Part shown: positions 4,072 through 29,298 of the stretch, piece after piece
Numbering within the stretch: position 1 is the first letter of the stretch
How the letters are laid out: each line of letters opens with the position of its first letter
Assembly: GCA_900539595.1 (NCBI GenBank)
Contig: UQCQ01000001.1
Span: forward strand, 172,291 to 236,290
Reading direction: 5' to 3'
Source: an uncultured Mollicutes bacterium
Lineage (GTDB): Bacteria; Bacillota_I; Bacilli_A; RFN20; CAG-826
Length of the DNA stretch: 64,000 bases
Position numbers and translations under genes: made by a program
The notes under the pieces: generated by a model
The model's input: only the letters and a program-made list of their open reading frames with translations
What the model was told of the DNA's origin: nothing
Database searches by the model: none

Positions 4072-5256
4072 CTAATGATAAGAGTCCTTAATGAAGCCGC
4101 AAGGGTCGATAGCGATACCATTTTCAAACAATTTCTTATATGGTTCGAACACTTTGTGCGGTTGAGCCAGAATTAACACGTCCGAACGTCTTATCGCCTC
4201 TTCAATGGGGACATTAATAATGCCTTCTATCATCTCAACATGGGAATTCGGTTCACACCCAATGACGTCAAAGCCATCTTCCGTCAATTTTTTTGCAATA
4301 ACAAGGCCGCTAGAATTACGTAAATCTCCAATATTCGCTTTATAACTCAGTCCAAACACCCCGATTGTTTTACCCTTTCTTGCGATGCATAGTCTTTCCG
4401 CTTCCTCCGCAACGAGAACCGGTTTCTTATCATTTATCGTTCTCGCCATAGAAAGCAAACCGACATCGTCACCATAACGATTAATCAAAAACAATGGGTC
4501 CACAGGAATGCAATGGCCGCCTACGCCGCTGCCCGGGTTTGGAACCTTAATACGTGGATGTTTATTTATTTTGTTAATCAAGGCAAATGGGTCTATCCCC
4601 TCTTTTTCCGCAATAAATCCCACCTGATTTGCAAACGCCAAATCGACATCCCTCGCCGCATTTTGAAGGAGTTTCACCAATTCGGCTTCTTCAAACGAAC
4701 AAACGTCGATATCGGATAGGCTGATTTTAGAATAAAGGGATTTTGATCTCCTTAAAGCCACGGGGTCGTCGGACCCAATCACGCGGGCGTTGTTCTTAAT
4801 TTCCGCCATCACGTTTCCTGGCAAAATCGTTTCGGGGCAATACGCGAAACAACCTTCAAAGCCCAAACTCGAAAGCATCTTTTTTATTCGTTTCCCAGTT
4901 CCAACAGGAACGGTGCTTTCAAGAATAAGCAACGTGTCTTTTTTCAATATTCCAGCAACATCTTTTAATGCGCCTGTAACGCTAGATAAATCAGGTGTTC
5001 CATCGAGTTTCGTCGGCGTTTGAACGGCAATAACAATGCGGTCGCACTCCTTCGGTTTGTCCACATATGAAATCCGACGCGAATTTTCTTTCAGCAAGGC
5101 ATCGACGTCGGGTTCGCCATATAGAAAAGATCCGTCGATTAGTGATTGAAGACGCGAAACATTCTTCTCAACGACAATAACCTCCGCGCATTGAGAAAAG
5201 GCAGCGGCCAGCGGAAGTCCAATATAACCAGCACCAATGATTTCAATTTTTTCCAT
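4072..5256 (-). CDS. UDP-N-acetyl-D-mannosamine / UDP-sugar 6-dehydrogenase family (WecC/Cap5O-like)
   Basis: N-terminal Rossmann IEIIGAGYIGLPLAAAF. The catalytic Cys region GGHCIPVDP and overall length are typical of nucleotide-sugar dehydrogenases. It overlaps the upstream epimerase-containing gene by 14 bp. Confidence 0.7.
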   Translation of the reverse strand: MEKIEIIGAGYIGLPLAAAFSQCAEVIVVEKNVSRLQSLIDGSFLYGEPDVDALLKENSRRISYVDKPKECDRIVIAVQTPTKLDGTPDLSSVTGALKDVAGILKKDTLLILESTVPVGTGKRIKKMLSSLGFEGCFAYCPETILPGNVMAEIKNNARVIGSDDPVALRRSKSLYSKISLSDIDVCSFEEAELVKLLQNAARDVDLAFANQVGFIAEKEGIDPFALINKINKHPRIKVPNPGSGVGGHCIPVDPLFLINRYGDDVGLLSMARTINDKKPVLVAEEAERLCIARKGKTIGVFGLSYKANIGDLRNSSGLVIAKKLTEDGFDVIGCEPNSHVEMIEGIINVPIEEAIRRSDVLILAQPHKVFEPYKKLFENGIAIDPCGFIKDSYH

Positions 5257-8200
5257 ACACATGCTCCAAAATTACCGACGCGATTTTAGCTCCAGCGCCG
5301 CCTTTGCCATAACGATCATCTGGTTGAATAGTCCCCGACTTGATTAATTCATTCAGAAGCTTTGCCATGCCTTTTCCTGAAGGAGGGAACATGCACTTCC
5401 CCGCTCGTTCCGTTTTTTCGCGGACAATTAATGCGGGAATGCCAAGAAATAACGCTTCTTCTTCCACGCCGCCAGAATCCGTTATGACGGCAATAGAAGA
5501 CGATAGTTTCCTTTGAAACTCTTGTGGCTCCAACGGATTGGTAAGCGTTAGATTCGGAATGTTCTTCAGTTTTTGCGCTGCGGCAACAATCACGGGATTG
5601 GGGTGAACGGGGAACAAAAACTGCACGCGTGGATTCAATTGGCAGCATTCCCTTATTTCGGAAAAAATATTTGTCAAAAAAGGGAGGTTTTCCTTCCGAT
5701 GAATGGTAATAAGAACACCCTGCCTCGATTCGGAAACAACATTTTGTCTCAAATAATCAACGAATGTATTACCGGTAACAATCACGCCGCGTGCGCCTTC
5801 TCTTATCAGGTTTTCTTCTTCCTTGCTTGATGGGGCGAAATTCAAAGCGGCTTCTTTGCTGATTCTTTTTCGAATAATTTCTTCAGGAAAAGGATTCGAT
5901 TCATCGAAACTACGCAAACCGGCTTCCACATAATAGAGAGGAACGCCAAGCAGCAGTGACAGCTTGGCACCAGACAATGCGGATGAAGTATCACCCTGAA
6001 CACAGATATAAGAAGGGGCGAACGGCAAGACTCGCATAGTATCTTCGGCCCATTTTTCGGATATCTTGTCAAAATCTCCTTGTCGCAGCTTAACGAAACA
6101 ATGCGTATCAATCCCACCTTTCATTAGTATCTTCGTTGGAAGACCATCATGTTGATGCGTATCAAGAACATAAAAGGGTGCCTCTCTTTGTTGCAATGAT
6201 TCTAGAATCGGAAGCATCTTGATCGCTTCGGGGCGGGTTCCAAGAACAAATAAGCCTGGATGCCGATCCATGGTAAAAAGCAATTTCTCTTGCTCTTTTT
6301 CATAGGAATACAAAGATGCAATCGCATAGGCCCGCTCCGTAAGGGCATTTGTCCTTTGAACATCACGGTTCAACATTTCTATCAAGTTGGCGGCCTCTTC
6401 AACATTGGAATAAAACGCCATAGAGTCTCCAAACGTGTATTGAATGCGATTTAGGCGAGAGCTAACGACGCACGGAAGCCTCGACAAAGCGGCCTCATAA
6501 ACGCACCTCCCAAAAGTTTCCTGCAAAGAAGTGCAAAGATAAAAATCCGACTGATCGAGAGCCGTCTTCAACTGCAGCTGACCAACAGAGCCCTTAAAGA
6601 AAATGAAATCACCAGCGTCCTCTATCATGGATTCGTAAATTGTCTTCTCGTCGATTGTCCCATAGATGCTAAGGGTCGCATCATATCCACGTTTTCGTAG
6701 CAAAGAGACAATTTCTTTGGATTCGGGAAGATTTTTTTGAAGTTTAGTGCTGGAAATCATGACGATTCGCACTCTACGTCCTCCAGTCTCCCTTTCTTTT
6801 GGTTTTGAATCAAAGATTTGAGATATGCCTCTTGATATTACTTTGATGCGATTAGGATTCGCACCATAGTGTTTGGTTATCACTTCTTTGTCTTCTTCGT
6901 TTGGAACAACAATCGCCATGACATTTTGGTAAACCCTTCTTTCGGCGGCAAAATATTCTTTAGGCGGAAACTCGCCAGACCTTAAATAATCGCAACCGTT
7001 AAACATTGGGAATACTATGGCTTTCGCAAGATTTGCGTCATTCAGTCCAAAAGCTTTGGATGTATGAACAACAACAATTTCATCATAATTTTCCAAAAGA
7101 CCATTAATTCTCTCTTCGTAATGAGCGATCGAGTCAATCCTGCGGGAAAATTTCCCTTCTCGACAAGGATTTGGTAGAAATACGTGATGACGAAAAGCAT
7201 TGATATCTCCGTAATCACTTCTTGGCGAACGCAGGCAATAAAAGTCTAAATCATAGTGTCCTTTGGCGGCTTTCACTATTGACGAAACCATGCTGGATCC
7301 CCCGCCATCAGGGACCCCATAGAACTTGGAAGTAATGAGAGCAACTCGTTGACGCTCCCAAAAACGTAAATATTTTTGGAATATCGCCTCGAAGTCATAA
7401 CCATCAACCTCTTCATCTCGAGGAAGTTCTTCAAGAGGTGCCGCCAACACGGCTGCCGCGATTTCAGACGGCGAATCACCACAAATAACCCCCCTCTTGC
7501 CATTTATAATTTCACTTAATGCTCCAGAATCGGTTGAAACAATATAGGTTCTCGAAGCTATAGCCTCCAAAATCGTTCTTCCCATTCCCTCGCAATGAAT
7601 ATAACGGCCTCCAGGAACCTCATATTCAAGGTTCCCAGAGCATTGCAAATAAATATCTGCGCCTACAATATAAGGAAGTACTTTCTCGTGTTCTTTTTTT
7701 CCAAGAAAATAGATGCGCTCATTTTTTTCGTATTTTAGTTTTAGTTCCGAAAAGTCTGGGCCATCGCCGATAATGGTAAGGTCGTATGGTTTTGGAAGCA
7801 GATTAAAAGCAGTTAAAAGAAGCCCCATGCGCTTATAAGGCTCAAATCTAGCGCTGCACACAAGGTGAATTCTTTGCTCTTTAAAAAGCTTCTTCTTTAT
7901 TGCCTTTTTATCCAGCGATTCAATGGAAGAAAGTGGTACGCCTCCCCTACAGAGGCGGAGCATCGACCCTCGAATCCCCAATTCTTCCAATCGTTTTTCC
8001 GTAAAACAACTATTGGTAATGAGAATATCGACATTGCGATTAAGCGTTTCGATCCAATACCTTTGCCTATTTTCAAGTGGTTTGGTTAAATCCAATAACG
8101 GGGCCGAAGGGATTTCGTTACCACCCGTCCGATAGAGAACCCTGGCCTTTGGAAAAAACGATTTGATTTCATCCATTTCCTCAATCCAATGGCCAGAGTT

Positions 8201-9127
8201 AAAGAACACGCGAATATCGCGATGCCCAATTACGGTTTTCAAATCGGCGTACTTAGTCGAGCACCCCATGTTTGACTCGACAATTGTATTTTCGCCGTTC
8301 CTATGTGAAACAACATAAACGTCGCCTTTGTCCCAAAGAAACTTTTTAAGATACTTTGCATGGGTTTCCATGCCACCAATATCGTCAAGACTTGATTCGA
8401 TGTAGAGAAGATAAACGGGTGGCAATAGATTTAATATACTTAACGCGTTACTAACCCCATTTTCGAATGAGGCGGCAGTCACGAACTTCGCGGCGTAGCC
8501 CACTTCCGCCGGGCATCCGGCCATCGCAACGGAATTTGGAAACGATTGAATCATCTCAAAATCATTCGGGCCGTCACCAAAGACCGCAACTTCTTCTTTG
8601 GACCATCCTTCTTTATTGCAAATTAATTCAATCGCGGAAGATTTGGAAACACCTTTTCTAAGGCAAACATCCACCCCGGATTTTTGCCAGCGAACCACAT
8701 GGTATTGCTTTGGAGAAGCGCCTGTTTCATAGACCAGAGCATAAATGTTTCCTTCCGGTCGGGAGCAATCCGTCGTCACAAACCCTTTCTTTAAAAGTGA
8801 CTTTTGAATTTCTTCATTCTTTGCATGAATACCAGAATCGGCATAGGCGGCGAGCCAATTATCATTTAAGACAGCCGAAATTGGCCTTTCCGATATTTTT
8901 GTTTCTCGCTTGTATATAACAGCACCATCAAACAAAACATAGTAGTCGAATTCAAAATCCCCCAGAGCGGCTTTTGCCATACCCATATTTCGAATGCTGC
9001 ACACTCCCAGTTTAATGCCACGTTTTTGCAAGGATCTAAGATCGTTTTGCAAGGATGGCGGCATCCCCAATCCTTTGCTCTTGCAAACCAGCGTATTACC
9101 AATATCAAAGAAACAGGCTTTAATCAT
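5243..9127 (-). CDS. 1294-aa multidomain glycan-synthesis protein. Domain order: HAD-like hydrolase, GT4 glycosyltransferase, a second GT4-like domain, then a non-hydrolysing UDP-GlcNAc 2-epimerase (WecB-like) C-terminal domain.
   Basis: N-terminus MIKACFFDIGNTLV (HAD-like motif I). GGMETH and EGMGRTILEAIA are GT4 signatures. The C-terminal ~370 aa carry GTRPEAIKM, VEAGLRS, TGNT, HRKEN, DSGGVEEEA and TER motifs colinear with WecB. It is a single uninterrupted ORF. Confidence 0.65.
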   Translation of the reverse strand: MIKACFFDIGNTLVCKSKGLGMPPSLQNDLRSLQKRGIKLGVCSIRNMGMAKAALGDFEFDYYVLFDGAVIYKRETKISERPISAVLNDNWLAAYADSGIHAKNEEIQKSLLKKGFVTTDCSRPEGNIYALVYETGASPKQYHVVRWQKSGVDVCLRKGVSKSSAIELICNKEGWSKEEVAVFGDGPNDFEMIQSFPNSVAMAGCPAEVGYAAKFVTAASFENGVSNALSILNLLPPVYLLYIESSLDDIGGMETHAKYLKKFLWDKGDVYVVSHRNGENTIVESNMGCSTKYADLKTVIGHRDIRVFFNSGHWIEEMDEIKSFFPKARVLYRTGGNEIPSAPLLDLTKPLENRQRYWIETLNRNVDILITNSCFTEKRLEELGIRGSMLRLCRGGVPLSSIESLDKKAIKKKLFKEQRIHLVCSARFEPYKRMGLLLTAFNLLPKPYDLTIIGDGPDFSELKLKYEKNERIYFLGKKEHEKVLPYIVGADIYLQCSGNLEYEVPGGRYIHCEGMGRTILEAIASRTYIVSTDSGALSEIINGKRGVICGDSPSEIAAAVLAAPLEELPRDEEVDGYDFEAIFQKYLRFWERQRVALITSKFYGVPDGGGSSMVSSIVKAAKGHYDLDFYCLRSPRSDYGDINAFRHHVFLPNPCREGKFSRRIDSIAHYEERINGLLENYDEIVVVHTSKAFGLNDANLAKAIVFPMFNGCDYLRSGEFPPKEYFAAERRVYQNVMAIVVPNEEDKEVITKHYGANPNRIKVISRGISQIFDSKPKERETGGRRVRIVMISSTKLQKNLPESKEIVSLLRKRGYDATLSIYGTIDEKTIYESMIEDAGDFIFFKGSVGQLQLKTALDQSDFYLCTSLQETFGRCVYEAALSRLPCVVSSRLNRIQYTFGDSMAFYSNVEEAANLIEMLNRDVQRTNALTERAYAIASLYSYEKEQEKLLFTMDRHPGLFVLGTRPEAIKMLPILESLQQREAPFYVLDTHQHDGLPTKILMKGGIDTHCFVKLRQGDFDKISEKWAEDTMRVLPFAPSYICVQGDTSSALSGAKLSLLLGVPLYYVEAGLRSFDESNPFPEEIIRKRISKEAALNFAPSSKEEENLIREGARGVIVTGNTFVDYLRQNVVSESRQGVLITIHRKENLPFLTNIFSEIRECCQLNPRVQFLFPVHPNPVIVAAAQKLKNIPNLTLTNPLEPQEFQRKLSSSIAVITDSGGVEEEALFLGIPALIVREKTERAGKCMFPPSGKGMAKLLNELIKSGTIQPDDRYGKGGAGAKIASVILEHVYGKN

Positions 9128-9842
9128 TGTCGAAAGCCTCTTTCATTAAACAACAACGGTAACCATGCGTCTTTAAAGCCTTAACAAGGTCAATGAACAA
9201 ATTTGCAATCCCATAGCCGCAATATCTTCTTTCATCGATTATGTTTTTATCAATAGAACGGTATTCCTGTCGTGACAATTGGTCCTTTAGTGTTCTAGTC
9301 AGTTGGTAATCGAATGAATTGAAGGCAAGGTGAATCGGATGAAATACAAAAACCAAATTATCCGCATTTTTTGCAGCATTCATAACCACATTAACGTCAA
9401 AGGGCAGACCTGCTTTGATAAATGCGCCGTCTTCAAAGAAAACCGGCATCTCGATACAATTCTCCTCAACGCGAATGGGCAACGGCTTCAGCAAAGACAA
9501 AACATTTGATGTTACCGTTATCCCAGTCATATTCATAAAAGAGCCGAAAGCCGGTTCTGGGGCGTGGTACAAATGGCATCGTACTATTCTTTTTTCCGCC
9601 GGAATATTTTTGAGTGAATTCGCAATCTCTTTCACAGAACCCCCATGGCTAGAACCAAGCATGAAATTCGGGTGCCATTCCAACGAAGACAAATGGTTTT
9701 TACAATACAAAAGAACACGCTCTGACTTATGAGTTTGGAAAAAAGTAATTGGAACATTCGCGTCCGCCACAATTGTTAGCGCTTCGCCAATAACAGCTTC
9801 GCTCGCCCAGTCTAAATCGATGGTTATATAAGCTTTATTCAT
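9120..9842 (-). CDS. Hypothetical protein, possibly a divergent polysaccharide deacetylase-like enzyme
   Basis: 240-aa ORF translationally coupled on both sides (8-bp and 4-bp overlaps). It shows weak NodB-like motifs (ITIDLDW, H..H). The assignment is speculative. Confidence 0.35.
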   Translation of the reverse strand: MNKAYITIDLDWASEAVIGEALTIVADANVPITFFQTHKSERVLLYCKNHLSSLEWHPNFMLGSSHGGSVKEIANSLKNIPAEKRIVRCHLYHAPEPAFGSFMNMTGITVTSNVLSLLKPLPIRVEENCIEMPVFFEDGAFIKAGLPFDVNVVMNAAKNADNLVFVFHPIHLAFNSFDYQLTRTLKDQLSRQEYRSIDKNIIDERRYCGYGIANLFIDLVKALKTHGYRCCLMKEAFDND

Positions 9843-10747
9843 GATAGTTTATGAAAGCGATCAAATTGAGAAGCATCGATTCCAAGTTCCTCTTTTAACT
9901 CATCCATACTCTCGTATTCCCATATACTCCGCGAGATCACCTTTGTTCTAACGCCATTCACGTCTTTAAACGCTTCAATTCTCCCCGCATGTGACAGATT
10001 AACCATCGAGTCTTCCATGGTTTTATTGTCCTTGAACGCCAACTCAATTCCAGACCCTTGACACATCTCGTTGATTTTTTCGCAAATTGAAGCGTACCTT
10101 TCATCCGAAATTGAATAAATTTCATCTTTAGCCGGATCGTTGTATGTCATGTATTGATAGAACTTCCATTTTGTAATCGGATATTCCCTTTGATGAGATA
10201 AGACCATGGCAACAACATCAAGAAGACCATCGTAATTTACAGGCGTAACAACAGAATGTAGTTTGATGTCGAACCCCCGTTCTTTGATGGATTTAATTCT
10301 TTTTTTGAAGCGTTCCAAATATTGAGTGTGTTGTCCATAGTTTCTCCCAAGTCTAGTGAGAATATTGTCGTCAACTGAATCAACGGTGATTGTAATACGG
10401 TCCACGACTCCAACGAGCTTATCAAGCACCCAATCCTCCAAAAGCACTGCGTTAGTTAAAAGTTCGATGCGGAGATTGCTCTCTTTGTTTTTTGGGTATT
10501 TATAGCGTTTGATGAAATCGATTAAAGAAAGAAAGTCAGAAACTTTATTCCCTCCAATGAAGAGCGGTTCTCCCCCGGACAGCGTAAGTTTTCTAACATT
10601 GAGGCGATACAAAGCTTCTACGGCTTTCTTTTTGTTTTCAAGCGACAGTTCAGACGCAACGGATGCCGGTGAACAATCACGAAAGCAGTATCCACAATTC
10701 AATACACACAAAGGCGTTAGCATCCAATAAACGGCATACTGATCCAT
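9839..10747 (-). CDS. Radical SAM enzyme
   Basis: CVLNCGYC (CxxxCxxC) at residues 14-21 and GGEPLF glycine-rich SAM motif. No obvious SPASM cysteine cluster. It is the first gene of the glycan operon. Confidence 0.7.
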   Translation of the reverse strand: MDQYAVYWMLTPLCVLNCGYCFRDCSPASVASELSLENKKKAVEALYRLNVRKLTLSGGEPLFIGGNKVSDFLSLIDFIKRYKYPKNKESNLRIELLTNAVLLEDWVLDKLVGVVDRITITVDSVDDNILTRLGRNYGQHTQYLERFKKRIKSIKERGFDIKLHSVVTPVNYDGLLDVVAMVLSHQREYPITKWKFYQYMTYNDPAKDEIYSISDERYASICEKINEMCQGSGIELAFKDNKTMEDSMVNLSHAGRIEAFKDVNGVRTKVISRSIWEYESMDELKEELGIDASQFDRFHKLS

Positions 10748-10942
10748 TCGTTCTCCTTATCAATTACTTCCGTTTAGGTGGGAAATATTGGCTTTAATTG
10801 TTTTTGATTTTATCAGTGTAACAAAAAGGAGAAAATGTTTTTATTTTCGTTGCGTAAAAATCAAAAACCGCAATCGACTTTTTGAGTTGCTACAAAACGT
10901 AAATTACCGGCATGACGTGAACGGGTAGTTCAATCACCCGTT

Positions 10943-11512
10943 TTATAAATTGATGTAATTTCGTTTTGCTTTGAATTTCGTCTCGGAGTCATGATCAAAT
11001 TCCTCTCCAGGCTTATCGAGACGATTTTTAATATCCGTACCCTTCAGAATATCAAGGAGTGGAATCATATAGTCGCCCTGTATTCCAAGCTCATGGTCCG
11101 GGAATTTGAAGAGAATCGCTACTAGGAACCTGGCGTCATCCTTTTTGCCGTCCCATTCTACTTCAACATCATCTTCCACAAGCGTTATCCCTTCAATTCT
11201 ATCCTTGATATTTACATCGATTTGCTCGACGTTTTGGAGGGCTGACGTCGCCTCGCTTTCTTTAATTTCCTTAACGAAAAACCTAGGATGGTCATCGTCT
11301 TGACTTCCAAACAAGGGATAGGGGCTATAGTCGTAATCAATCATGACCACGGAATCTTCGAGAAACAACTCAACCCTTCCGTAAACGGTTCCATCCCCAA
11401 ATTTGTCCAAGGGGTCGTGTCGTATTTTGCTCAACTTTTTCCCTATCAAGCTTTTAAGCAAAGATTTTTCTTTGTCGCTTAGACACAAATTGATCATATC
11501 AAGTTTAGCCAT
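10943..11512 (-). CDS. Hypothetical acidic protein (189 aa), a candidate partner of the upstream DinJ-like antitoxin
   Basis: ORF with strongly acidic composition. It lies 45 bp downstream of the antitoxin-like gene on the same strand. No recognisable RelE/YafQ motifs. Confidence 0.45.
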   Translation of the reverse strand: MAKLDMINLCLSDKEKSLLKSLIGKKLSKIRHDPLDKFGDGTVYGRVELFLEDSVVMIDYDYSPYPLFGSQDDDHPRFFVKEIKESEATSALQNVEQIDVNIKDRIEGITLVEDDVEVEWDGKKDDARFLVAILFKFPDHELGIQGDYMIPLLDILKGTDIKNRLDKPGEEFDHDSETKFKAKRNYINL

Positions 11513-11557
11513 CTATTCCCGTTGTATTCCTCGATTAAGCGACGTCGCCCTTAAAAC

Positions 11558-11812
11558 TCACTTAGCCAATTCCTCATAAACTTTGCCGTGCTTCTTGTCC
11601 GACTTCTCCGAAAGCTCCATCAAGGTCTTTCTATCAAGATATTGAATATCGGTGCTTTTAGTAACTTTGAAAGGAATGCTCTGCTCTCTGATAGACTGTT
11701 TGATGAACATATTGAAGGCCGCGTTCATTGTGAGTCCAAGCTCCGAGAAGAGCTTCTCCGCCTTCACCTTGTCATCCGCATCCATTCTGATGGTTACGTT
11801 TACGCTTGCCAT
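11558..11812 (-). CDS. DinJ/RelB-family antitoxin (ribbon-helix-helix)
   Basis: MASVNVTIRMDADDKVKAEKLFSELGLTMNAAFNMFIKQSIREQSIPF aligns motif-for-motif with E. coli DinJ (V.aRiDedLK..A..vl..mGLT......i.L..v.re..lPF). Confidence 0.65.
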   Translation of the reverse strand: MASVNVTIRMDADDKVKAEKLFSELGLTMNAAFNMFIKQSIREQSIPFKVTKSTDIQYLDRKTLMELSEKSDKKHGKVYEELAK

Positions 11813-12239
11813 AAATTGTCTCCTTGTTTTGGAATATTATATCAGAAATCTAAAGTAATAGAAGGCAAAAAATGTGCTATATATGTGCAAATAAACATTT
11901 GTAGTTTTTTCTCGCGTGGATAAAAAAGAATAAGAGGCAATCCGCATTACCTCACCTTTTCAATAAAGTCAGTGGGAAAACTCGACACGACGAGAAAAAC
12001 GGGCGATTCATTCTTCGTTTTGTCTTTGTTTAGCTACTTGTTCAGCCGTCTTTAATGTTTCTATGTATCGCTTGAGCCGTCCCGTGAGATATTTTACAAG
12101 AAGTTTGAACATTGCTTTGGGGGAACCGGTGAACCAAGATGAATTTTTCTACCCATTATGGCTCATTTTCTTTTCTGTCCGTATCCTTCATCAGGAACCA
12201 TTAGGAACCTTGCTGAATTGCCGATGCGGACGAATTGCG

Positions 12240-12780
12240 GACCATTTAAGCGTCCACGATGATGGCCCTATAAGTTCCTTCCTCGGTAATGGCTTCCCCG
12301 GCTTTGTAGTCATAGGCCTCGCCGTTTCTAGTGACGACGATGGTCTTTTTTTCGCCTGGGGCGATAGTGACCGGATCGTTGGTGATGTCACCGTCTGCTA
12401 CGTTCATATCGAAGGCGACAGTCTTGTCGATCACGATGGTGAAGGAGGTCTTGTTGCCATAGGCGTCCTGAACGGTGATGGGGTCGTGACCATTGACGGC
12501 CTAACCGAAGAGGGAACCGTCGAGGTCTATAAGGGCGGCCAGAAGATTGCCTACAGCCTCGGCGACGAGATCAAGGACTACGGCCACTACGAAGTCGTCG
12601 TGACCGATGCCTTGGGCAACTCCAGGACCTACGCCTTCACTCTCCAGTTCCAGATGAACGCCTGGGCAATCAATCACCCTCATCGCCGTTGGCCTAGCCG
12701 CCGCCATCGGTGTCACTGCAACCATCGTTCCGAAACGCAAACGCGTCTTCAAGAAGCGTGGCTAAGACCTTATTGGAGGG
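12240..12780. pseudogene. GC-rich remnants of a repeat-domain cell-surface protein gene, present on both strands and with a frameshifted C-terminal TM anchor
   Basis: The minus strand (12246-12434) encodes ...GEAYDYKAGEAITEEGTYRAIIVDA. The plus strand (12483-12660) encodes LTEEGTVEVYKGGQKIAYSLGDEIKDYGHYEVVVTDALGNSRTYAFTLQFQ. A shifted frame gives ITLIAVGLAAAIGVTATIVPKRKRVFKKRG* after a stop. The 323-aa ORF 12063-13034 is a chimera of sense and antisense pieces. Confidence 0.35.
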
Positions 12781-13490
12781 GGAAAGTGCCCCGTCTTGCT
12801 AAACAGGATAAGGAGGTGGCTCAATCTGCGCCACTTCCCCTCCGGACCAGGGTTCGGCAGTGGGAAACCCACATGACGAGAACACAAACAGAAATGGACC
12901 TAATTGAAGAAGATTATTGTCTGATGGCAGAAACGGTTCTGGCAATGGTATATTTCTGCCATCTATCCAGGACGTTAATAATTCGGTCTCTAAAACTATT
13001 TGAGATTGGTAAAACCCTGCAGCTCAACTCCTGAGCTTCCAAACGAAGAAGGTAGAACTGAACAGCTCGCCATGTCCTTAAAGCGTCTGGTTTATTTCCT
13101 TCTTCGAAACATTGAATCTCTTGCCGATGGCCGAGGCCTTCTGGTTGACAGCCACGGGCAAAGTATCAAAAAAACGAAAGTCCACCCTCTATGAAGAGAG
13201 GGTCATCGTTTATACATCAATGTCAACGAAGAGTTGTTTCTTCTTTTTCTTGAATTTGTTGATGATTGATATCTGCTTGTTTCGACGGCAGGTTGGACCA
13301 CATGTTTGGCACTGTATTTATTACGGCCGAGATTCATGTATCGCCTCTTTCTTTTTATTGGCACATTACTCCGACACCAAAAAATCACAAACTGACGGTG
13401 TGATTCAAGGACGATTTCTCAGATTACTTTCAGGGACGAAAAAAGAAGTCCACAAAGGATTTGATTGTAACGTTGGAGCTCTAGTTATGT

Positions 13491-14708
13491 TCAGTTGAAA
13501 TCCAGATTCTCTTGTTCCAGTTTGACATCGTGCTCAAGCATGTAGCGGATGGTTTCGTGGAATTCCTTGGCTTCTTCCTTGTGGAGCATTAGGCCAAGGC
13601 GCTTCTTGTCATTTTCAGAAAGATGCATGCATTCGGTTGCGTATTTCTCCAGTTCAGGGATGCCCATCATAAGAGGATGAACGTCAATACCCGTCTTCCT
13701 TCTTAGGTCAAGGAGGATGTTGAATCCACCCCAATCGATGTCACCGATGTGGTAGAAAGGCAAGGAAGGATTGAAATCATGAATCTTTTTTAAGAGTTCC
13801 CTCTTGATGGAATTGTGGTAGCCGGCGAGATAGATCACGATGGCATCTTTGCCTAGGTAGTAATAGTAGGTTGTGAGGTTCTCGATGGTGATGACTTTCT
13901 TCTTGGATATCGAAAGGATTTTCATCTCGCCGATTTCTTTGTCCGTCATAGAGAAATCATCATTCAGGGCATCAAGGTCAATAATCTGGCTGTTGATGGA
14001 AAATGACATCCCATACCGGAGATAGGCGAACAAAGGGTTCTTGACGATGCCGTGTTCGGCATAGACATCGTCGATTTTTTCATATTCCTCCCCCGAGAAT
14101 TCCTGGAAAATGCGTAGAATCTTGGTTTCGTTGCGCTGAAGGAGTTTGGAGTCGGAGAAATTTCTGGCCGAAAAGTTCCGCAGCAAGATTTCTTCATGCT
14201 GATTTTCGATGGCGCGGACGATGCTGACCTGTGTCTTCAAGTCATCCAAGTCTTTGTAATGGCTGAGGTGGGATTTATGGGCCTCAACCAAGCCAAGAAG
14301 AAACAGCAGATAGGATTTCTCCGTTGGCCCTGCTTCAGTATCGGACAGGCGGGACTGGATGAATTCCTTTTCAGAAGAGACGACATTGCTTTTCCTTTTG
14401 TGTCCGGTTAGCCGATACGCCTCATTCAGTTTCTTTTCGCTTTGGTTAAGCTCGATATGGTGTAGAAGTTTTGTCTTCCGGTCCCAGTCGAGGAGAACCA
14501 GGCCATCCTTTTCCAGAGATTTGGCGGCCTGATCGATGTCATCCCGGTATTTGTAGGAATCCTCTGCCATATATTCCGGCAGAGCCTTGTCTTTCCAGAC
14601 ATCAATTCGGATTTTCGTTTGTTTTGAATCCTCGGCTTCAAAGCCTCTTTCCCCGCCTTGGTGTTTGTCCAAAAGCCGGTTTAGGATGATGTTTTCATAA
14701 TCCTTCAT
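13491..14708 (-). CDS. jetD: Wadjet JetD (Toprim/DUF2220-type nuclease subunit)
   Basis: C-terminal Toprim-like FYHIGDIDWGGFNI. It is ~405 aa and the last gene of a four-gene operon following an SMC-like ATPase; its start overlaps the jetC stop by 4 bp. Confidence 0.7.
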   Translation of the reverse strand: MKDYENIILNRLLDKHQGGERGFEAEDSKQTKIRIDVWKDKALPEYMAEDSYKYRDDIDQAAKSLEKDGLVLLDWDRKTKLLHHIELNQSEKKLNEAYRLTGHKRKSNVVSSEKEFIQSRLSDTEAGPTEKSYLLFLLGLVEAHKSHLSHYKDLDDLKTQVSIVRAIENQHEEILLRNFSARNFSDSKLLQRNETKILRIFQEFSGEEYEKIDDVYAEHGIVKNPLFAYLRYGMSFSINSQIIDLDALNDDFSMTDKEIGEMKILSISKKKVITIENLTTYYYYLGKDAIVIYLAGYHNSIKRELLKKIHDFNPSLPFYHIGDIDWGGFNILLDLRRKTGIDVHPLMMGIPELEKYATECMHLSENDKKRLGLMLHKEEAKEFHETIRYMLEHDVKLEQENLDFN

Positions 14709-17700
14709 GATTCCTTGAACCTCGGACGCGGGAAGATCCGGTCTTTGATTTTGACGAGCCCAATCGTTGTGTCGACGTAAGGGAATATCGGTTTTGCGTT
14801 CCTTGAAGGAACGGCGATGATGGGCTGGATGGATAGCTTGCGGAAGAACTGCATCATGGAATCGACGTGGGCCTCGTCCATCTTCTCAAAGGCCTCGTCG
14901 AACATGACGATGCACCCTTTGGATCGCTCGGAGTAGCCTGACTTTACGATTTGGTCGAATGAGGCGGCAATAATGACGTAAAAAGGCGTCTGGGTCTCGC
15001 CACCGCTCTTGGACTTGTTAATCTTGGAGAAACGATAACTCTTGCCGTATTTGTTCGTGATGATGATGTCGTAACTCATGAACTTCCGGTAATCGGTGAA
15101 ATCTTGTATGACTTTCATGGATTTCTCGTCCTTAGTATCTGCCGTAAGTCTCTTGAAGAGATCGTTCATGAGCTCCATGTTGCTGGTTGAGAGCTGCTCG
15201 GTGAAAAGATCCTTGATGGAATAATCTTCATTGCTTCGGAAGATTTCGTAGAATGGCGCAAACGTCGGATCCTTGGCTTTGGAAATCTCGAACTGATAAA
15301 TCTCCTCAGACGAGCCGAAGGGCTTGTCCTTGAGAATTTTGTTCAGATCTTTTATGTTCCTGATCTCATTGTTGATGTTGTTTCTAATCTCGGCGATGTA
15401 AGAGTTCTGGAAGGTTGTTTTCGCCTCTTCTTTGACTTTATTGAGACGATCTTCGTATTCGGCGAGATGACGCTTGACCACATTGTTGTATTCCTGGTAG
15501 AAGCCATCCAGACTGTCCATGTCGGCTCTGGCGTCGAAGGAAAACTTCGCGATGTATTCATTCATCAGGGCAATAATCGCTCTGAAATCGCTATCAATGG
15601 TTTGCGCATAATTGCCGATACGGGATTGCAATTGACCGTCGTTCAAAGGGTTTTCGGCGATAAAGGAATCCAAGTGTGCGCTTATTTGCGGGTCGCGCAT
15701 CATACCCAAAAATTCCCCATTGGCTTTTTCTAGGCCGGCAGAAGAGCTCTTCAGCTCCTCTTCTGCTTTTGTGGAAGAGGCTATGGATGCCTTTTCGCTT
15801 TTGTCGGCATCGGTCTGCTGTTTTTTCAGCCCGTCAATTTTGTCATTGATTGTATTGACCTGCGCCGTCAGTTTGCCGACGTTTTCCTTAAGACTATCGT
15901 ATTGTGTCTGAAGCCCGCTGACCTCCTTTTCCTTTTCTATCTTCTGCTGCCAGTAGTTCTCGATTTTAGAGAGTCGGCTATAGTCGTTTCCTTCGCCTAA
16001 TTTGATAAGCTGGCGGAGTTCGCCTGCCTTTGCTTCCAAAGGCGGCATCTTTTCCCCGACTTCCTTCAGTTCGTTTTCAACTTGTTCCAGCTGTATCTTG
16101 ATGGAATTGAGGCCGATATAAGGCGTCCTGTAGACTTCGGGCCTCGTCTGCCTTGCGGCCTTGTTTCGATAGACCATGACGGTCTTCGTGATGGAGCAAG
16201 GGTACTTTTTCAATTCATCCTCGGAATCCACGCAGATGACCTGACCAAGGATATAGCTGGCGTATTTCCCGGCATCCTCAGTCAAAGCGGTGACTTTCTC
16301 AGCAAGGGAGCCTTCGAGAGGCTTATCGTCTTTGAGCTTGGCGACGTCGACCAGTCCGACTCCGGAGATGTGTCTCTCAGTTTTGTATCTTTCATAAAGT
16401 CGAAGCGCCTCATCGAAGTATTCTTTCGGCACGAAAAGGTCAAAGCGTCTGGTGTTCAAATAACCTTCAATGGCGTTTCTCCACTCCTCGTTCTCCTGAG
16501 GAATCTCCAGCAGCTCACAGAACGGTTTAGGCTCAACGTCGACTCCGTATTTCCGCTTAAGGCCTGCTTGCATGACTTCTTTAAGCGACGTTATTTTTGG
16601 GTCATAATCCGGGATGCCCTTCTTCAGGCTATCCCTCCTAGCCATCAGCTTGCTCTGCTGATCTTTCAAGTCATTCAGCTCTCCCTTCAGATCTGATTCA
16701 ACTTGCCTGTTTTCGGAAAGGGCCGCGTCCAGTTTGGCCTTATAGGCTTCCAGTTCTCCTTTGAGCTCGGCAAAATCCTCTTCCGCAACGGCGTGGGAAA
16801 ACCTCGTCTGGATACGGAAGGCCGTGGCGATCTCCTTCTCCTTGAGAACGTCCTGGCTCAATTCGGTAGCCTTGTCGGCGAGCCTGCGGAGTTCCTTGCT
16901 GGCCCCATCGAGTTTGTCTTTGATTTCCTTGATTCGGATGTATGCCTCCTGGTGCTCGATGGCATATTTGCTTTCCTTCAACTCGTCGAGCTGGTCGGAA
17001 ATCTGTGCCTTTAGGGTGTTCAGAGCCTCTTGGCGCGCCTTTTCCTCGATGATTTTTCTTTGGCAGGAGGTGATAGAGCCGTTGAAGCGGTCGATCTGCC
17101 TCTTTTTCTGATAGGCGAAGCAAAGTTTCCGGTTCAGCAAGGCCTCTTTGTATTCATCACCGCGATGGATGATGTTCTCGAGGATCGTCTGTTTGGCCTT
17201 GTCGGTCTCAACAATGGCGAGAGTATCGTTATAGGTTCGGATGTTGGCGCGTATTTCCTCGATACTGACGTTCTTTTCCGGCATCAGGAAGCGGTAGACG
17301 AAACTGTCCACATCGTCGATCGGCTTGAAGGAGACGGCCTTGGGGAGGAGTTCGTAATACTTTCCGCCTTCAAGGGAGAGAATCGAATACAAAGCCCTTC
17401 GGATATCTTTTTTGGCGTCCCCGAGGTCATTCAGATCCTTGAATCTTTTCTTCATCGCCGCGAAATTCAGGTAAACCTTCTTTCCTTCAATTTCGGTCGA
17501 GAAAAGATCCTCGGTCATCTTGGTGTCTTTGAAATGGTAGAAGCCTCTTCCGGTCCTTGCCTTTCCCTCTTGGATTTCAAGGACGGCCCCGATGACAAAA
17601 TATTTTTTGGCTTCCTCATCAAAGAACTCCAGGGCGATGTGACTCACCACCGAAGGTTCTGTACGGAGGTCAGGATGGTCCACTTCTCCTGTGTGGCCTC

Positions 17701-17914
17701 GCATATAGGTCTCGATCGTTCTGTCGTTTTTGTCGTTGGCGGCTGCGTTGAAATAATCAGTGTCCCCACCTGTCAATAGGAAATACAAAGCATCGATGAG
17801 GGAGGATTTCCCCGAGCCGTTCTCTCCGGTTACGAGAATCGATCCCCTCACGTCGACGGTCTCGTCATAGAAGCCCTGCCAGTTGATGAGCTTAATCTTC
17901 GTCAGCGTCTTCAT
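14705..17914 (-). CDS. jetC: Wadjet JetC (SMC-like ATPase, MksB-like)
   Basis: N-terminal Walker A GENGSGKSSLIDALYFLLTGG. It has a long coiled-coil middle and a C-terminal Walker B/D-loop (IVMFDEAFEKMDEAH). 1069 aa. Confidence 0.8.
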   Translation of the reverse strand: MKTLTKIKLINWQGFYDETVDVRGSILVTGENGSGKSSLIDALYFLLTGGDTDYFNAAANDKNDRTIETYMRGHTGEVDHPDLRTEPSVVSHIALEFFDEEAKKYFVIGAVLEIQEGKARTGRGFYHFKDTKMTEDLFSTEIEGKKVYLNFAAMKKRFKDLNDLGDAKKDIRRALYSILSLEGGKYYELLPKAVSFKPIDDVDSFVYRFLMPEKNVSIEEIRANIRTYNDTLAIVETDKAKQTILENIIHRGDEYKEALLNRKLCFAYQKKRQIDRFNGSITSCQRKIIEEKARQEALNTLKAQISDQLDELKESKYAIEHQEAYIRIKEIKDKLDGASKELRRLADKATELSQDVLKEKEIATAFRIQTRFSHAVAEEDFAELKGELEAYKAKLDAALSENRQVESDLKGELNDLKDQQSKLMARRDSLKKGIPDYDPKITSLKEVMQAGLKRKYGVDVEPKPFCELLEIPQENEEWRNAIEGYLNTRRFDLFVPKEYFDEALRLYERYKTERHISGVGLVDVAKLKDDKPLEGSLAEKVTALTEDAGKYASYILGQVICVDSEDELKKYPCSITKTVMVYRNKAARQTRPEVYRTPYIGLNSIKIQLEQVENELKEVGEKMPPLEAKAGELRQLIKLGEGNDYSRLSKIENYWQQKIEKEKEVSGLQTQYDSLKENVGKLTAQVNTINDKIDGLKKQQTDADKSEKASIASSTKAEEELKSSSAGLEKANGEFLGMMRDPQISAHLDSFIAENPLNDGQLQSRIGNYAQTIDSDFRAIIALMNEYIAKFSFDARADMDSLDGFYQEYNNVVKRHLAEYEDRLNKVKEEAKTTFQNSYIAEIRNNINNEIRNIKDLNKILKDKPFGSSEEIYQFEISKAKDPTFAPFYEIFRSNEDYSIKDLFTEQLSTSNMELMNDLFKRLTADTKDEKSMKVIQDFTDYRKFMSYDIIITNKYGKSYRFSKINKSKSGGETQTPFYVIIAASFDQIVKSGYSERSKGCIVMFDEAFEKMDEAHVDSMMQFFRKLSIQPIIAVPSRNAKPIFPYVDTTIGLVKIKDRIFPRPRFKES

Positions 17915-18536
17915 CGCTATCCTCCTCTCCTCCGCTCTCGTGCTTCAGGGCGCTGATTCGCCCGATAATGTCCTCCAGCTTCTCTTGCGGAATCACGATC
18001 TGGATGGAAGGAAGAATGTGAATCTGGGTGTTCTCATCGATTCTCGTCGCCGAGAATTCGACGATGCTATGAGCACGGAACTTCCTTAGAGCGTCATTGT
18101 ATTTGGATACCTGTTTCGAATCGGGAACTACCTGAGCGGTGTCCATCTGGGTGATGAGCTCATCCACGGAGACGAAGATCTCGTCGCTCGAGGTGATCTC
18201 CCGCTTCTTCTGGTTGTAGACTTTCCTCAGGATCAGCAGCAAGGCCGTGTCGAACTTGGTGAGCCTCATCCGGTCCCGATTGGCAAGCGTCTTGACGTAG
18301 ATAACACCGATTTCCTTTTGGGCGATGAGGTCGTAGTCAAGCAAGGAAAACAGGGAGGAGAAGCACTCTAGGTTTTCGATGACGACGAAATAGTCCTGGT
18401 AGTCGTCCTTCTTCTCCCGAATCAGGAAGTTGTTCCCGAGGAGCTTGGCTGAGATTCGGGAGAAAGTTTTACTATCCGTCTCCCCCAGAGCCATGTATTT
18501 GGTATAAAACGTCTCGCAGTCCTGCTGCTTACTCAT
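17892..18536 (-). CDS. jetB: Wadjet JetB (MksE-like, DUF4194-type)
   Basis: 214-aa acidic protein between jetA and jetC with overlapping start/stop codons. Assigned by its position and size within the jetABCD operon. Confidence 0.55.
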   Translation of the reverse strand: MSKQQDCETFYTKYMALGETDSKTFSRISAKLLGNNFLIREKKDDYQDYFVVIENLECFSSLFSLLDYDLIAQKEIGVIYVKTLANRDRMRLTKFDTALLLILRKVYNQKKREITSSDEIFVSVDELITQMDTAQVVPDSKQVSKYNDALRKFRAHSIVEFSATRIDENTQIHILPSIQIVIPQEKLEDIIGRISALKHESGGEEDSDEDADED

Positions 18537-20615: not shown

Positions 20616-20933
20616 CTATTTAAGGCGTGCGGACGCATCGGAATTATTGTTTTCACTTGCGGAACTTTGTTCGTTCGCGTTGTTTATGGCTGTGCAAATT
20701 TTCTCTATTAGTCCCTTGAATCTATCAAAAATGATTTTGTCATTTTCCGTTAAATGTTCTTTGCCGATTACATTGATTTCAACTTGCTCATTGATTGGTA
20801 CTGATTTAAAGATAAAATCATATAAATCTTTACCAGTAACCGAGTGATCCTTTGAAATGGAAAACAATTTGCTTTCTTCTTCCATGACTACTAATTCTTC
20901 ATCAATACGTTTAATCTGTAATTGTTTTTTCAT
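20616..20933 (-). CDS. Hypothetical 105-aa protein translationally coupled to the upstream PHP-ATPase gene
   Basis: Its start overlaps the stop of the 815-aa gene by 23 bp. It has the same very low GC content and no recognisable motifs. Confidence 0.5.
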   Translation of the reverse strand: MKKQLQIKRIDEELVVMEEESKLFSISKDHSVTGKDLYDFIFKSVPINEQVEINVIGKEHLTENDKIIFDRFKGLIEKICTAINNANEQSSASENNNSDASARLK

Positions 20934-23358: not shown

Positions 23359-23519
23359 TGAATGATTTAAAAAAGTCTTTTGGTTATGTTTACTATAAGT
23401 AGATTATATTATGAATCGCATTTTATATGAAAAATCAAACGTCAGGAAGGGCGTCAGGTACTTGCTTGCCATTTGGAACAAATCGATTGTTTACGAAGTT
23501 TGAAATGGATAAAGCAAGA

Positions 23520-25286: not shown

Positions 25287-25590
25287 GTTTTGCGTTTTTT
25301 CTTTGGAAAAGCTTTAGATCCCCAAAGGTCAATTGCGGTATTCGAATGTGATTTCAAAGACGCTTATATGATATCACAAATGTTTTCAGAACTTTTTGGA
25401 AAGGATAAACTCGTAGGAGAATTGTGAAAAACGATGAAAATGGATGAAAATAGCCTGTCAAGTCCTGAAATTCACTATTTTCGAAGCTATAATATAAGTA
25501 GATTAAAGGGCTTTGCCCCATTTGCTTACGATCATGGAGTACGTAAGGAAACAAGACTCCTTAACAAAAGAAAGAAGGAGGTTTTTCTTT

Positions 25591-25743
25591 ATGAACTATG
25601 AGTACACAGTCCTATCCGAGAACAATTATGGAGTGATGCAACAGGAACTCAACAGCTGCGGAAGATATGGGTGGAAACTTGTCAATGTCGTCTGGGACAA
25701 CGACAATGCCTGTTCGGTTGCTGTGATGATGTGGGGGAAATAA
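25591..25743 (+). CDS. DUF4177-like small protein (50 aa), divergent from the DUF2075 gene
   Basis: Consensus RBS AAGGAGGT 8 nt before the ATG at 25591. MNYEYTVLSE....GRYGWKLVNVV resembles DUF4177 (YEYKV....GWELV). Confidence 0.45.
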   Translation: MNYEYTVLSENNYGVMQQELNSCGRYGWKLVNVVWDNDNACSVAVMMWGK

Positions 25744-29296: not shown

Positions 29297-29298
29297 CC

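What the first reader, a model, noticed from the sequence alone, without database searches (positions are those of the whole stretch)
10943..11812. DinJ/RelB-like antitoxin followed by a 189-aa acidic protein instead of a RelE/YafQ toxin
The 84-aa protein aligns closely with E. coli DinJ. The gene 45 bp downstream on the same strand is not a ~90-aa basic RelE/YafQ-like toxin. It is a 189-aa, strongly acidic protein with no recognisable motifs. Either the antitoxin is an orphan regulator, or this is a non-canonical pairing of a DinJ-type antitoxin with a new toxin family. A bidirectional hairpin (AACGGGT-agttcaatc-ACCCGTT at ~10912-10936) follows the pair.
Basis: partly seen in the sequence, partly recalled or inferred. 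Interest (0 to 1): 0.55.

Follow-up and report, generated by a model that had tools for sequence, protein, structure and literature searches.

The report
Orphan antitoxin left by toxin deletion
The DinJ/RelB-like gene is the surviving antitoxin of a RelB–Doc toxin–antitoxin pair whose Doc toxin gene was deleted, and the 189-aa acidic protein next to it is an unrelated gene that normally belongs to a different three-gene module, so this is not a new toxin–antitoxin pairing.

Summary
On the minus strand an 84-aa RelB/DinJ-family gene (11558-11812) lies 45 bp upstream of a 189-aa acidic ORF (10943-11512).

The interpretation as a new TA pair is not supported. Closely related contigs carry an intact 125-aa Fic/Doc toxin gene between the two genes, overlapping relB by 4 bp. 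One of these contigs, L020, has the same flanking genes as the window. The window's 45-bp "gap" is the stump of the doc 5' end, with a net loss of 360 bp. The first ATG of the 189-aa ORF sits at the deletion junction. The family-conserved start is Met6 (11497), giving 184 aa.

RelB–Doc pairs persist down to 60% Doc identity without the 184-aa gene. The 184-aa family has no Pfam, PDB or phage match. In 11 of 26 unselected loci it is the third gene of a conserved module, DUF4417 / ~126-143 aa / ~185 aa. This holds down to about 31% identity and on one phage-like contig.

The doc-deleted allele occurs on many gut-metagenome contigs. Between two doc-deleted lineages relB shows dN/dS = 0.09, so the orphan antitoxin is maintained. 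It most likely acts as an autorepressor of a relB–p184 operon, as an anti-addiction factor, or both. This is an ordinary outcome with modest interest.

The parts
11558..11812 (-). relB: 84-aa RelB/DinJ-family (RHH) antitoxin, intact, now an orphan
   Evidence: - Family match: TIGR02384 62.7 bits against 45.65; PF04221.
- 85-90% aa identity to the RelB that precedes intact doc in L018 and L020.
- This exact protein is on at least 83 contigs.
- dN/dS = 0.09 between two doc-deleted lineages.
11507..11561 (-). Stump of the deleted doc (Fic/Doc toxin) gene. The GTG start (11561-11559) overlaps the relB stop, and the remnant ORF GTG AGT TTT AAG GGC GAC GTC GCT TAA (11561-11535) has 8 sense codons. 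The deletion junction lies at about 11507/11506.
   Evidence: - DNA alignment to L018 and L017 shows 9-bp, 16-bp and about 333-bp gaps.
- blastn shows collinearity with L020 on both sides.
- The sequence was read directly.
- The stump is identical in 10 of 11 loci that carry the same RelB protein, and differs by 1 nt in the eleventh.
10943..11497 (-). p184: 184-aa acidic protein of an uncharacterised, mostly beta family. It is callable as 189 aa from the junction ATG at 11512. It is normally the third gene of a DUF4417 / ~126-143 aa / p184 module and stands alone here.
   Evidence: - 66 homologues; Met6 is invariant as the start.
- AF2 model: pLDDT 90.8.
- Census of neighbouring genes.
- dN/dS = 0.09-0.25.
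11820..11890 (-). Putative relB promoter and operator.
- Extended -10, TGATATAAT (11844-11836).
- SD AAGGAG (11825-11820), 7 nt before the ATG.
- Three T[TA]GC[AC][CT] hexamers at an 11-bp period (11890, 11879, 11868).
   Evidence: - Read directly from the sequence.
- The same elements are present in the divergent doc-deleted locus L042: TGATATAGT, and TTGCAC/TAGCAC/TTGCAT at an 11-bp period.
- The generic -35/-10 scan found no canonical site.
- Function is inferred, not shown.
10920..10942 (.). 7-bp inverted repeat AACGGGT-9 nt-ACCCGTT immediately after the p184 stop codon; a weak terminator candidate
   Evidence: - Found by the repeat scan.
- Not called by the terminator scan.
- Conserved only in close relatives, and the MFE structure is not this stem.
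12011..12130 (-). 3'-terminal remnant (last 40 codons) of a 309/329-aa Fic-domain gene. This gene precedes relB intact in L022, L042 and L048. A terminator-like hairpin follows at 11953-11934.
   Evidence: - tblastn: 85% aa identity to the L022 protein and 92.5% to the L042 protein.
- Terminator scan.

Best explanation
The locus is a decayed hybrid type II toxin-antitoxin module, RelB(RHH)-Doc(Fic kinase family), lying next to an unrelated gene.

**Shown**
- Sister alleles have relB (84 aa) overlapping a GTG-started doc (125 aa, motif HPFIDGNKR) by 4 bp, followed 46 bp later by the p184 gene.
- In the window's lineage, deletions of 9 bp, 16 bp and about 333 bp (net 360 bp) removed doc. What remains is an 8-codon stump, which brings relB and p184 within 45-60 bp of each other.
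- Neither gene is the other's functional partner. RelB's partner was Doc. p184's usual partners are a DUF4417 protein and a ~126-143-aa protein, which are also missing here.
- relB stayed intact and under purifying selection after the deletion.

**Inferred mechanism**
- With no terminator between the genes, relB and p184 are now co-transcribed from the relB promoter, which has an extended -10.
- RelB is a ribbon-helix-helix dimer and probably represses this promoter through the 11-bp-spaced hexamers. Without its Doc co-repressor there would be no conditional cooperativity.
- Its conserved C-terminal tail can still neutralise Doc toxins arriving on related elements (anti-addiction). Intact relB-doc alleles circulate in the same population.
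- p184 is a non-enzymatic binding or regulatory protein, not a toxin.
For: **doc was deleted from this site**
- Intact doc lies between an 85-90% identical relB and a 90% identical p184 in L018, L020 and L021.
- L020 has the same downstream genes as the window: radical SAM 302 aa, WbmS-like 240 aa, and a 1294-aa fusion protein. It is collinear at 96% over 11506-6547 and 89% over 11891-11554, with only the doc segment missing.
- The base-level alignment shows the stump.

**The missing gene is a Doc toxin**
- PF02661 E=4.9e-17.
- TIGR01550 48.2 bits against a cut-off of 38.65.
- P1 Doc structure 3k33 at E=1.7e-7.

**RelB-Doc is the conserved pair**
- RelB-Doc adjacency with a 1-20-bp start/stop overlap is conserved at 74%, 63% and 60% Doc identity, with no p184 homologue (tblastn, for L023-L027) and no ~185-aa gene called downstream (L054-L057).
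- In L022 the two modules lie 3.5 kb apart.

**p184 belongs elsewhere**
- Its own homologues have no RelB or Doc nearby in 26 loci.
- They follow DUF4417 plus a ~126-143-aa gene in 11 loci, with remnants of that gene in 5 more. The same arrangement holds at 31% identity and on a phage-like contig.

**The deletion is real and the orphan is maintained**
- The doc-deleted allele appears in every one of 10 places read for the exact RelB protein.
- It is also in GenBank as adjacent proteins MCI5452549.1 and MCI5452550.1, so it is not an assembly artefact.
- Window against L042, which shares the same junctions: relB has 11 synonymous and 5 non-synonymous changes, dN/dS = 0.09, P=2.6e-5 against neutrality.
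Against: - No experiment shows that this RelB binds DNA or Doc.
- The selection estimate rests on 16 substitutions. Recombination with intact alleles could inflate it, and mosaicism is evident: relB DNA is nearly invariant among 11 loci while p184 has 9 DNA alleles.
- Only 64 kb of the genome is visible, so a doc copy elsewhere cannot be excluded.
- Which p184 start codon is used after the deletion is unresolved. The junction ATG has a GGGAA 5 nt upstream, whereas Met6 lost its original spacing to that motif.
- The direction of the L022-like to L018-like rearrangement (deletion or insertion) is inferred from phylogenetic breadth only.
Confidence: 0.88

Rival explanations
1. One reading: RelB and the 189-aa protein form a genuine non-canonical type II TA pair, with the acidic protein as a new toxin family.
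For: - The genes are on the same strand, 45 bp apart, with no terminator between them.
- The pair is conserved on many contigs of this lineage.
- p184 has no known family.
Against: - The adjacency is secondary to the doc deletion.
- No RelB lies near p184 homologues in 26 independently fetched loci.
- p184 occurs with no small upstream gene in several loci, for example L003, L010, L011 and L029. That is not viable for an unguarded toxin.
- The wider family has only one nearly invariant residue (R179), so no catalytic signature.
- An acidic protein of 184 aa is atypical for a type II toxin.
- RelB's C-terminal tail is conserved with Doc-partnered homologues.
Confidence: 0.03
2. A three-component system, RelB-Doc-p184, in which p184 is an accessory factor of the TA module (a chaperone, adaptor or sensor). 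In the window, doc was lost and the other two components persist together.
For: - relB-doc-p184 are co-oriented and tightly spaced in L018, L020 and L021.
- relB and p184 stay linked across varied left-hand contexts: JetD, HTH_5/DUF5714, or a 309-aa Fic protein.
- The 60-bp stump and spacer are more conserved than synonymous sites: 3/60 against 11/49, P=0.009.
Against: - The linkage exists only within one clade of 90% or higher identity.
- L022, from the same clade, has the modules 3.5 kb apart, with p184 in its usual DUF4417 cassette.
- RelB-Doc pairs at 60-79% identity lack p184.
- p184 at 25-70% identity lacks RelB-Doc.
Confidence: 0.06
3. Neutral wreckage: relB is a non-functional leftover that has not yet had time to decay, and nothing here is selected.
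For: - The region is full of gene remnants: the doc stump, the Fic 3' remnant at 12011-12130, and a dubious 323-aa ORF.
- relB DNA is almost identical among most doc-deleted contigs, consistent with a recent event.
Against: - Two doc-deleted lineages that share the same junctions have diverged to dS=0.27, yet the relB ORF is intact with dN/dS = 0.09, P=2.6e-5.
- The promoter -10 and the SD are conserved between them.
Confidence: 0.1

Closest known systems
Phd-Doc toxin-antitoxin module of phage P1 (Doc is a Fic-fold kinase that phosphorylates EF-Tu; PMC4803016)
   Same: - The toxin lost from this locus belongs to the Doc family: TIGR01550 above its cut-off, an HxFx(D/N)(A/G)NKR-type motif (HPFIDGNKR), and sequence matches to P1 Doc structures 3k33 and 3dd7.
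- The antitoxin gene comes first, and the genes overlap.
   Different: - The antitoxin is a RelB/DinJ-type RHH protein, not Phd/YefM, so this is a hybrid module.
- In the window the toxin gene is deleted.
E. coli DinJ-YafQ and RelB-RelE modules
   Same: The antitoxin shares the N-terminal ribbon-helix-helix DNA-binding domain family (TIGR02384, PF04221).
   Different: - There is no RelE/YafQ/ParE toxin here or in relatives.
- The C-terminal toxin-binding region is unrelated to DinJ or RelB.
- The E. coli DinJ equivalog model is far below its cut-off.
Orphan antitoxins and anti-addiction modules, for example the chromosomal CcdA of Erwinia chrysanthemi and the orphan antitoxins surveyed in Klebsiella (reviewed in PMC7354431)
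   Same: - An antitoxin gene without a toxin, demonstrably derived from a degraded canonical module.
- It is retained while intact homologous TA alleles circulate.
   Different: - Cross-neutralisation has not been tested here.
- This orphan may additionally have become the promoter and regulator for an unrelated downstream gene.
NFACT-N domain (RqcH/Rqc2/NEMF, FbpA/PavA) and the Fpg/MutM N-terminal domain
   Different: - Foldseek finds nothing (E>0.1, TM about 0.2).
- There is no sequence or profile match, and no conserved catalytic residues.

Membership tests
RelB/DinJ family type II antitoxin | Sequence match to the family model above its curated cut-off (N-terminal RHH domain) | tested here: met
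   TIGR02384 scores 62.7 bits against a cut-off of 45.65. PF04221 scores 37.3 against 22.4.
RelB/DinJ family type II antitoxin | Cognate toxin gene immediately downstream in the same operon | tested here: not met
   - In the window only an 8-codon doc stump remains.
- No Doc homologue lies elsewhere in the 64 kb.
- The feature is met in relatives L018, L020, L022, L023-27 and L054-57, where the toxin is Doc.
RelB/DinJ family type II antitoxin | Binds its own operator and neutralises the toxin by direct binding | not testable with these tools
   Only candidate operator repeats (11868-11890) and a conserved C-terminal tail were seen.
   - No such ORF exists here.
- Relatives carry Fic/Doc in the toxin position.
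- A separate RelB (89 aa)-ParE/YafQ pair in L023 is a different paralogue, 31% identical.
Doc (death-on-curing) toxin family: the lost partner | Fic fold with the motif HxFx(D/N)(A/G)NKR, and a match to TIGR01550 | tested here: met
   This holds for the L018 and L020 gene: HPFIDGNKR; TIGR01550 48.2 bits against 38.65; PDB Doc chains. The window itself retains only the first few codons.
Type II toxin (the claim for the 189-aa protein) | Conserved genetic pairing with an antitoxin across homologues | tested here: not met
   None of the 26 loci fetched by p184 homology has RelB or Doc within about 5 kb. Several have no small upstream gene.
Type II toxin (the claim for the 189-aa protein) | Growth inhibition on expression, relieved by the antitoxin | not testable with these tools
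   Needs an experiment.
DUF4417 / ~126-143 aa / p184 three-gene module (uncharacterised) | p184 homologue immediately downstream of a DUF4417 gene and a ~126-143-aa gene on the same strand | tested here: not met
   - The window has no DUF4417 gene or ~126-143-aa gene; p184 stands alone.
- The feature is met in L001, L004-L007, L009, L013, L022, L030, L034, L035, L038-40 and L053.
NFACT-N / Fpg-N fold | Significant structural superposition and conserved functional residues | tested here: inconclusive
   [not shown]

The most novel reading that the evidence does not exclude
The p184 family, the DUF4417 protein and the ~126-143-aa protein form an undescribed three-gene system. It is often paired with a divergent XRE regulator, sits in defence islands, and occurs on at least one phage-like contig.

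In this reading p184 is the non-enzymatic inhibitor or immunity-like or sensor component. That would explain why it survives alone after the putative DUF4417 nuclease is lost, much like an orphan immunity gene.

In the window two such "antidote-type" orphans, RelB and p184, have been welded into one operon under RelB control. This would be a small anti-addiction/immunity cassette selected in a population where the intact toxic modules still circulate.
Probability: 0.2. Interest if true: 0.55.

Novelty: new member of a known kind. Interest (0 to 1): 0.3.

Why it matters
- It removes a false lead. This is not a new toxin family paired with DinJ.
- It gives a clean, base-resolved example of how orphan antitoxins arise. 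The toxin was deleted inside a defence island, the stump is still readable, the deleted allele is common in gut metagenomes, and the antitoxin is kept by purifying selection afterwards.
- That bears on the anti-addiction and co-option hypotheses for orphan antitoxins, which are mostly argued from annotation counts.
- As a by-product it defines an uncharacterised, Pfam-less protein family of about 155 clusters at 50% identity. It also defines a conserved module, DUF4417 / ~126-143 aa / ~185 aa, that may merit testing as a defence or phage-related system.

Tried and rejected
**Searches on p184 that found nothing**
- Family searches of p184 in Pfam, NCBIfam, PADLOC and PHROGs.
- Pfam on 60 diverse family members.
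- A profile search against PDB sequences.
- Foldseek against PDB and BFVD: no hit better than E=0.14.
- The AFDB50 library was unavailable.
- tblastn of p184 against 50,697 phage and 72,556 plasmid records: no match.

**Checks on the TA reading**
- tblastn of the window's RelB against the 16 genome loci carrying p184 homologues: no hit. This first showed that the pair is not conserved.
- A search for a trans-encoded Doc, ParE/YafQ, DUF4417 or ~126-143-aa gene in the whole window: none.

**Ideas considered and dropped**
- The 184-aa versus 189-aa gene-call length as a marker for intact versus deleted alleles. Rejected, because L042 and L043 are doc-deleted yet called as 184 aa.
- The hairpin after p184 as a conserved bidirectional terminator. 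Rejected as weak: it has a U-tract on one side only, it is not conserved beyond close relatives, and the MFE fold differs.
- A canonical -35/-10 promoter scan found none upstream of relB. An extended -10 was read by eye instead.

Full report
**1. What is in the sequence**

On the minus strand there is an 84-aa ORF at 11558-11812. Exactly 45 bp downstream lies a 189-aa ORF at 10943-11512.

The 84-aa protein is a RelB/DinJ-family antitoxin. TIGR02384 gives E=2.7e-17 and 62.7 bits against a cut-off of 45.65. PF04221 gives E=2.6e-9. It is not especially close to E. coli DinJ:
- The DinJ equivalog model scores 16 bits against a cut-off of 96.
- Solved DinJ and RelB chains match only the N-terminal RHH part, residues 4-55, at E=0.01-0.4.

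The 189-aa protein is acidic, with pI 4.75. It has no hit in Pfam, NCBIfam, PADLOC or PHROGs.

It is a weak terminator candidate at best.

**2. The 189-aa protein is a real, conserved gene, but its start is Met6**

A search of 5.8 billion proteins gave 66 homologues at 51-96% identity, all unnamed. In a 49-sequence alignment the invariant start is Met6 of the window ORF, which gives 184 aa beginning at 11497.

**3. The pair is not conserved**

Sixteen genome loci and ten metagenome loci were fetched by homology to the 184-aa protein ("p184"). They come from Erysipelotrichaceae and Bacilli MAGs and a few other gut or rumen bins. None contains a homologue of the window's RelB or of Doc.

**4. 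What used to be in the gap**

The closest p184 relatives that are not simply the same allele tell the story. In L018, L020 and L021 a 125-aa Fic/Doc gene sits between an 85-90% identical relB and a 90% identical p184. Its GTG start overlaps the relB stop by 4 bp.

This gene is a Doc-family toxin:
- PF02661 E=4.9e-17.
- TIGR01550 scores 48.2 bits against a cut-off of 38.65.
- It carries the motif HPFIDGNKR.
- It matches P1 Doc structures.

L020 is the same chromosomal site as the window. Downstream it has the same radical-SAM (302 aa), WbmS-like (240 aa) and 1294-aa genes. It is collinear with the window at 96% identity over 11506-6547 and 89% over 11891-11554.

The base-level alignment shows that the window's "45-bp spacer" is the 5' end of doc, broken by deletions of 9 bp, 16 bp and about 333 bp. 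The net loss is 360 bp.
- What remains is GTG AGT TTT AAG GGC GAC GTC GCT TAA (11561-11535), followed by recognisable doc sequence (TTAATCGAGGAATAC...) up to the junction at about 11507.
- The ATG at 11512, which makes the ORF 189 aa long, lies in this junction sequence.

So there is indeed "no room for a toxin", because the toxin gene was excised.

**5. RelB-Doc is the conserved pair, and p184 belongs elsewhere**

RelB (78-87 aa, PF04221) directly precedes and overlaps Doc in unrelated contexts, with no p184 homologue or ~185-aa gene nearby. This holds at 74% Doc identity (L023-27), 60% (L054/55) and 63% (L056/57).

Hybrid associations of toxin and antitoxin superfamilies are well known. The canonical pairs are Phd-Doc and RelB-RelE (PMC4803016, citing Leplae 2011 and Arbing 2010).

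Conversely, p184 is the last gene of a tight co-oriented module: DUF4417 protein (~224 aa) / ~126-143-aa protein / p184. A divergent XRE-type HTH gene often accompanies it.
- The module is present in 11 of the 26 unselected loci, and remnants of the middle gene lie just upstream of p184 in 5 more.
- The same triad recurs with a p184 relative only 31% identical, next to an ABC-3C-type system with DUF2326/MC7/CTD11.
- It also recurs on an unverified faecal phage contig, MT835627.1, detected with the broad family profile at E=1e-32.
- L022, from the window's own clade, has relB-doc and then, 3.5 kb further on, HTH/DUF4417/126 aa/p184. L018 and L020 look like L022 minus that 3.5 kb.

Both genes are orphans of different modules.

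**6. What p184 is**

The AF2 model is confident (pLDDT 90.8, pTM 0.88) and mostly beta.
- Foldseek finds nothing in PDB or BFVD.
- An exhaustive profile search finds 155 cluster representatives, almost all stand-alone proteins of 180-200 aa.
- Sixty diverse members have no Pfam family.
- These members share only one nearly invariant residue, an Arg near the C-terminus.

This argues for a non-enzymatic binding or regulatory protein and against a toxin. p184 is absent from the phage and plasmid collections at tblastn sensitivity.

**7. The deleted allele is common and the orphan antitoxin is kept**

The exact RelB protein of the window is recorded on at least 83 contigs. A one-cluster variant is recorded on 154 more. 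This includes GenBank MCI5452549.1 ("RelB/DinJ family antitoxin"), which is followed by MCI5452550.1 ("hypothetical protein", 189 aa). All ten places read show relB directly followed by p184, in three different left-hand contexts.

L042 is a more divergent doc-deleted allele with the same junctions, so the deletion predates the split. Between it and the window:

| Region | Changes | dN/dS | Test |
|---|---|---|---|
| relB | 11 synonymous, 5 non-synonymous (dS 0.27, dN 0.025) | 0.09 | P=2.6e-5 against neutrality |
| p184 | 25.5 synonymous, 24.5 non-synonymous (Nei-Gojobori estimates) | 0.21 | P=4.6e-7 against neutrality |
| 60-bp stump and spacer | 3 of 60 positions | - | fewer than at synonymous sites, P=0.009 |

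There are three caveats. The counts are small, recombination is evident, and only one pair of lineages was compared.

**8. Mechanism**

The following is inferred, not shown.
- relB keeps a good SD (AAGGAG, 7 nt from the ATG) and an extended -10 (TGATATAAT, 11844-11836). Upstream are three T[TA]GC[AC][CT] hexamers at an 11-bp period. All are conserved in L042.
- No terminator separates relB from p184.
- The likely state is a bicistronic relB-p184 operon repressed by RelB alone.
- RelB's C-terminal tail shows only one conservative change between the two doc-deleted lineages. It would still be available to neutralise Doc from incoming related elements, which is the anti-addiction role proposed for orphan antitoxins (PMC7354431).

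**9. Context**

The window is a large defence island. It contains:
- PDC-S01- and PDC-S27-like ATPases.
- A viperin-like radical SAM gene with a sugar-modifying cluster.
- The relB-p184 pair.
- Wadjet JetABCD at 13491-19939.
- An AAA protein and an SLFN-type helicase.
- An HKD+Snf2 protein.
- A type III R-M system.
- PDC-S19.

Compared with L018, the viperin-like cluster is an insertion between p184 and the PDC-S27-like ATPase.

**10. Verdict**

The "new toxin" reading is refuted and the "orphan antitoxin" reading is upheld and explained. This is a new example of a known phenomenon. The by-product is an uncharacterised protein family and a conserved three-gene module worth a separate look.

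Noticed in passing
window 9839-10747 (-), with 9120-9842, 5243-9127 and 4072-5262 (-): A viperin-like radical SAM protein: PADLOC pVip E=3e-32; NCBIfam viperin_w_prok scores 104.7 bits, below its cut-off of 180. It is co-oriented with, and overlaps by a few bases, a WbmS-like deacetylase. Next come a 1294-aa HAD + 2x glycosyltransferase + UDP-GlcNAc 2-epimerase fusion and a UDP-glucose dehydrogenase. This is an unusual pVip-plus-sugar-nucleotide cluster. It is an insertion relative to L018, where p184 is followed directly by the PDC-S27-like ATPase.
   Followed up: partly
loci L001, L004-L007, L009, L013, L022, L030, L034, L035, L038-L040, L053: A conserved three-gene module: DUF4417 (~224 aa; PHROG 940 'nuclease') / ~126-143-aa unknown / ~185-aa p184 family. 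A divergent XRE HTH gene often accompanies it. It is found in defence-island-like contexts and on one faecal phage-like contig. No function is known, and the whole p184 family lacks a Pfam entry.
   Followed up: partly
window 11813-13490: A gene graveyard between relB and jetD. It holds the last 40 codons of a 309/329-aa Fic gene (12011-12130, -) with its terminator (11953-11934). It also holds a 323-aa ORF (12063-13034, +) with no family hit. The middle of that ORF and an antisense ORF (12246-12434, -) both read, by eye, like fragments of Ig-like surface-protein repeats, which suggests rearranged pseudogene pieces.
   Followed up: partly
window 13491-19939 (-): A complete type I Wadjet system, JetA-JetB-JetC-JetD, with strong PADLOC and Pfam matches.
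   Followed up: partly
window 20911-36159: Further defence genes:
- an 815-aa AAA protein with no Pfam family and weak PADLOC matches (Ppl, PDC-M49A; the GajA/PtuA-type ATPase hits cover only the C-terminal part);
- a 588-aa SLFN-group-3 helicase;
- a 1093-aa HKD+Snf2 protein (PADLOC C3a139, E=9e-120);
- a 235-aa unknown;
- type III R-M Mod (633 aa) and Res (1060 aa);
- a PDC-S19 homologue (319 aa).

   Followed up: no
window 10943-11812 compared with L043-L052: Among 11 loci sharing the identical RelB protein, relB DNA has 1 segregating site in 255 bp and the stump has 1 in 60. p184 has 56 in 555 bp, rising towards its 3' end (8, 17 and 31 per third), with 9 DNA alleles. This looks like a recombination boundary or diversifying turnover inside p184.
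   Followed up: partly
window 11539-11548: A perfect 10-bp palindrome, GCGACGTCGC, lies inside the doc stump, next to the 16-bp gap seen in the alignment to intact doc. Intact doc has GACGACATCATTTTTC... at this position. In L042 it is degraded to GCGCCGCCGC. Its significance is unknown.
   Followed up: no
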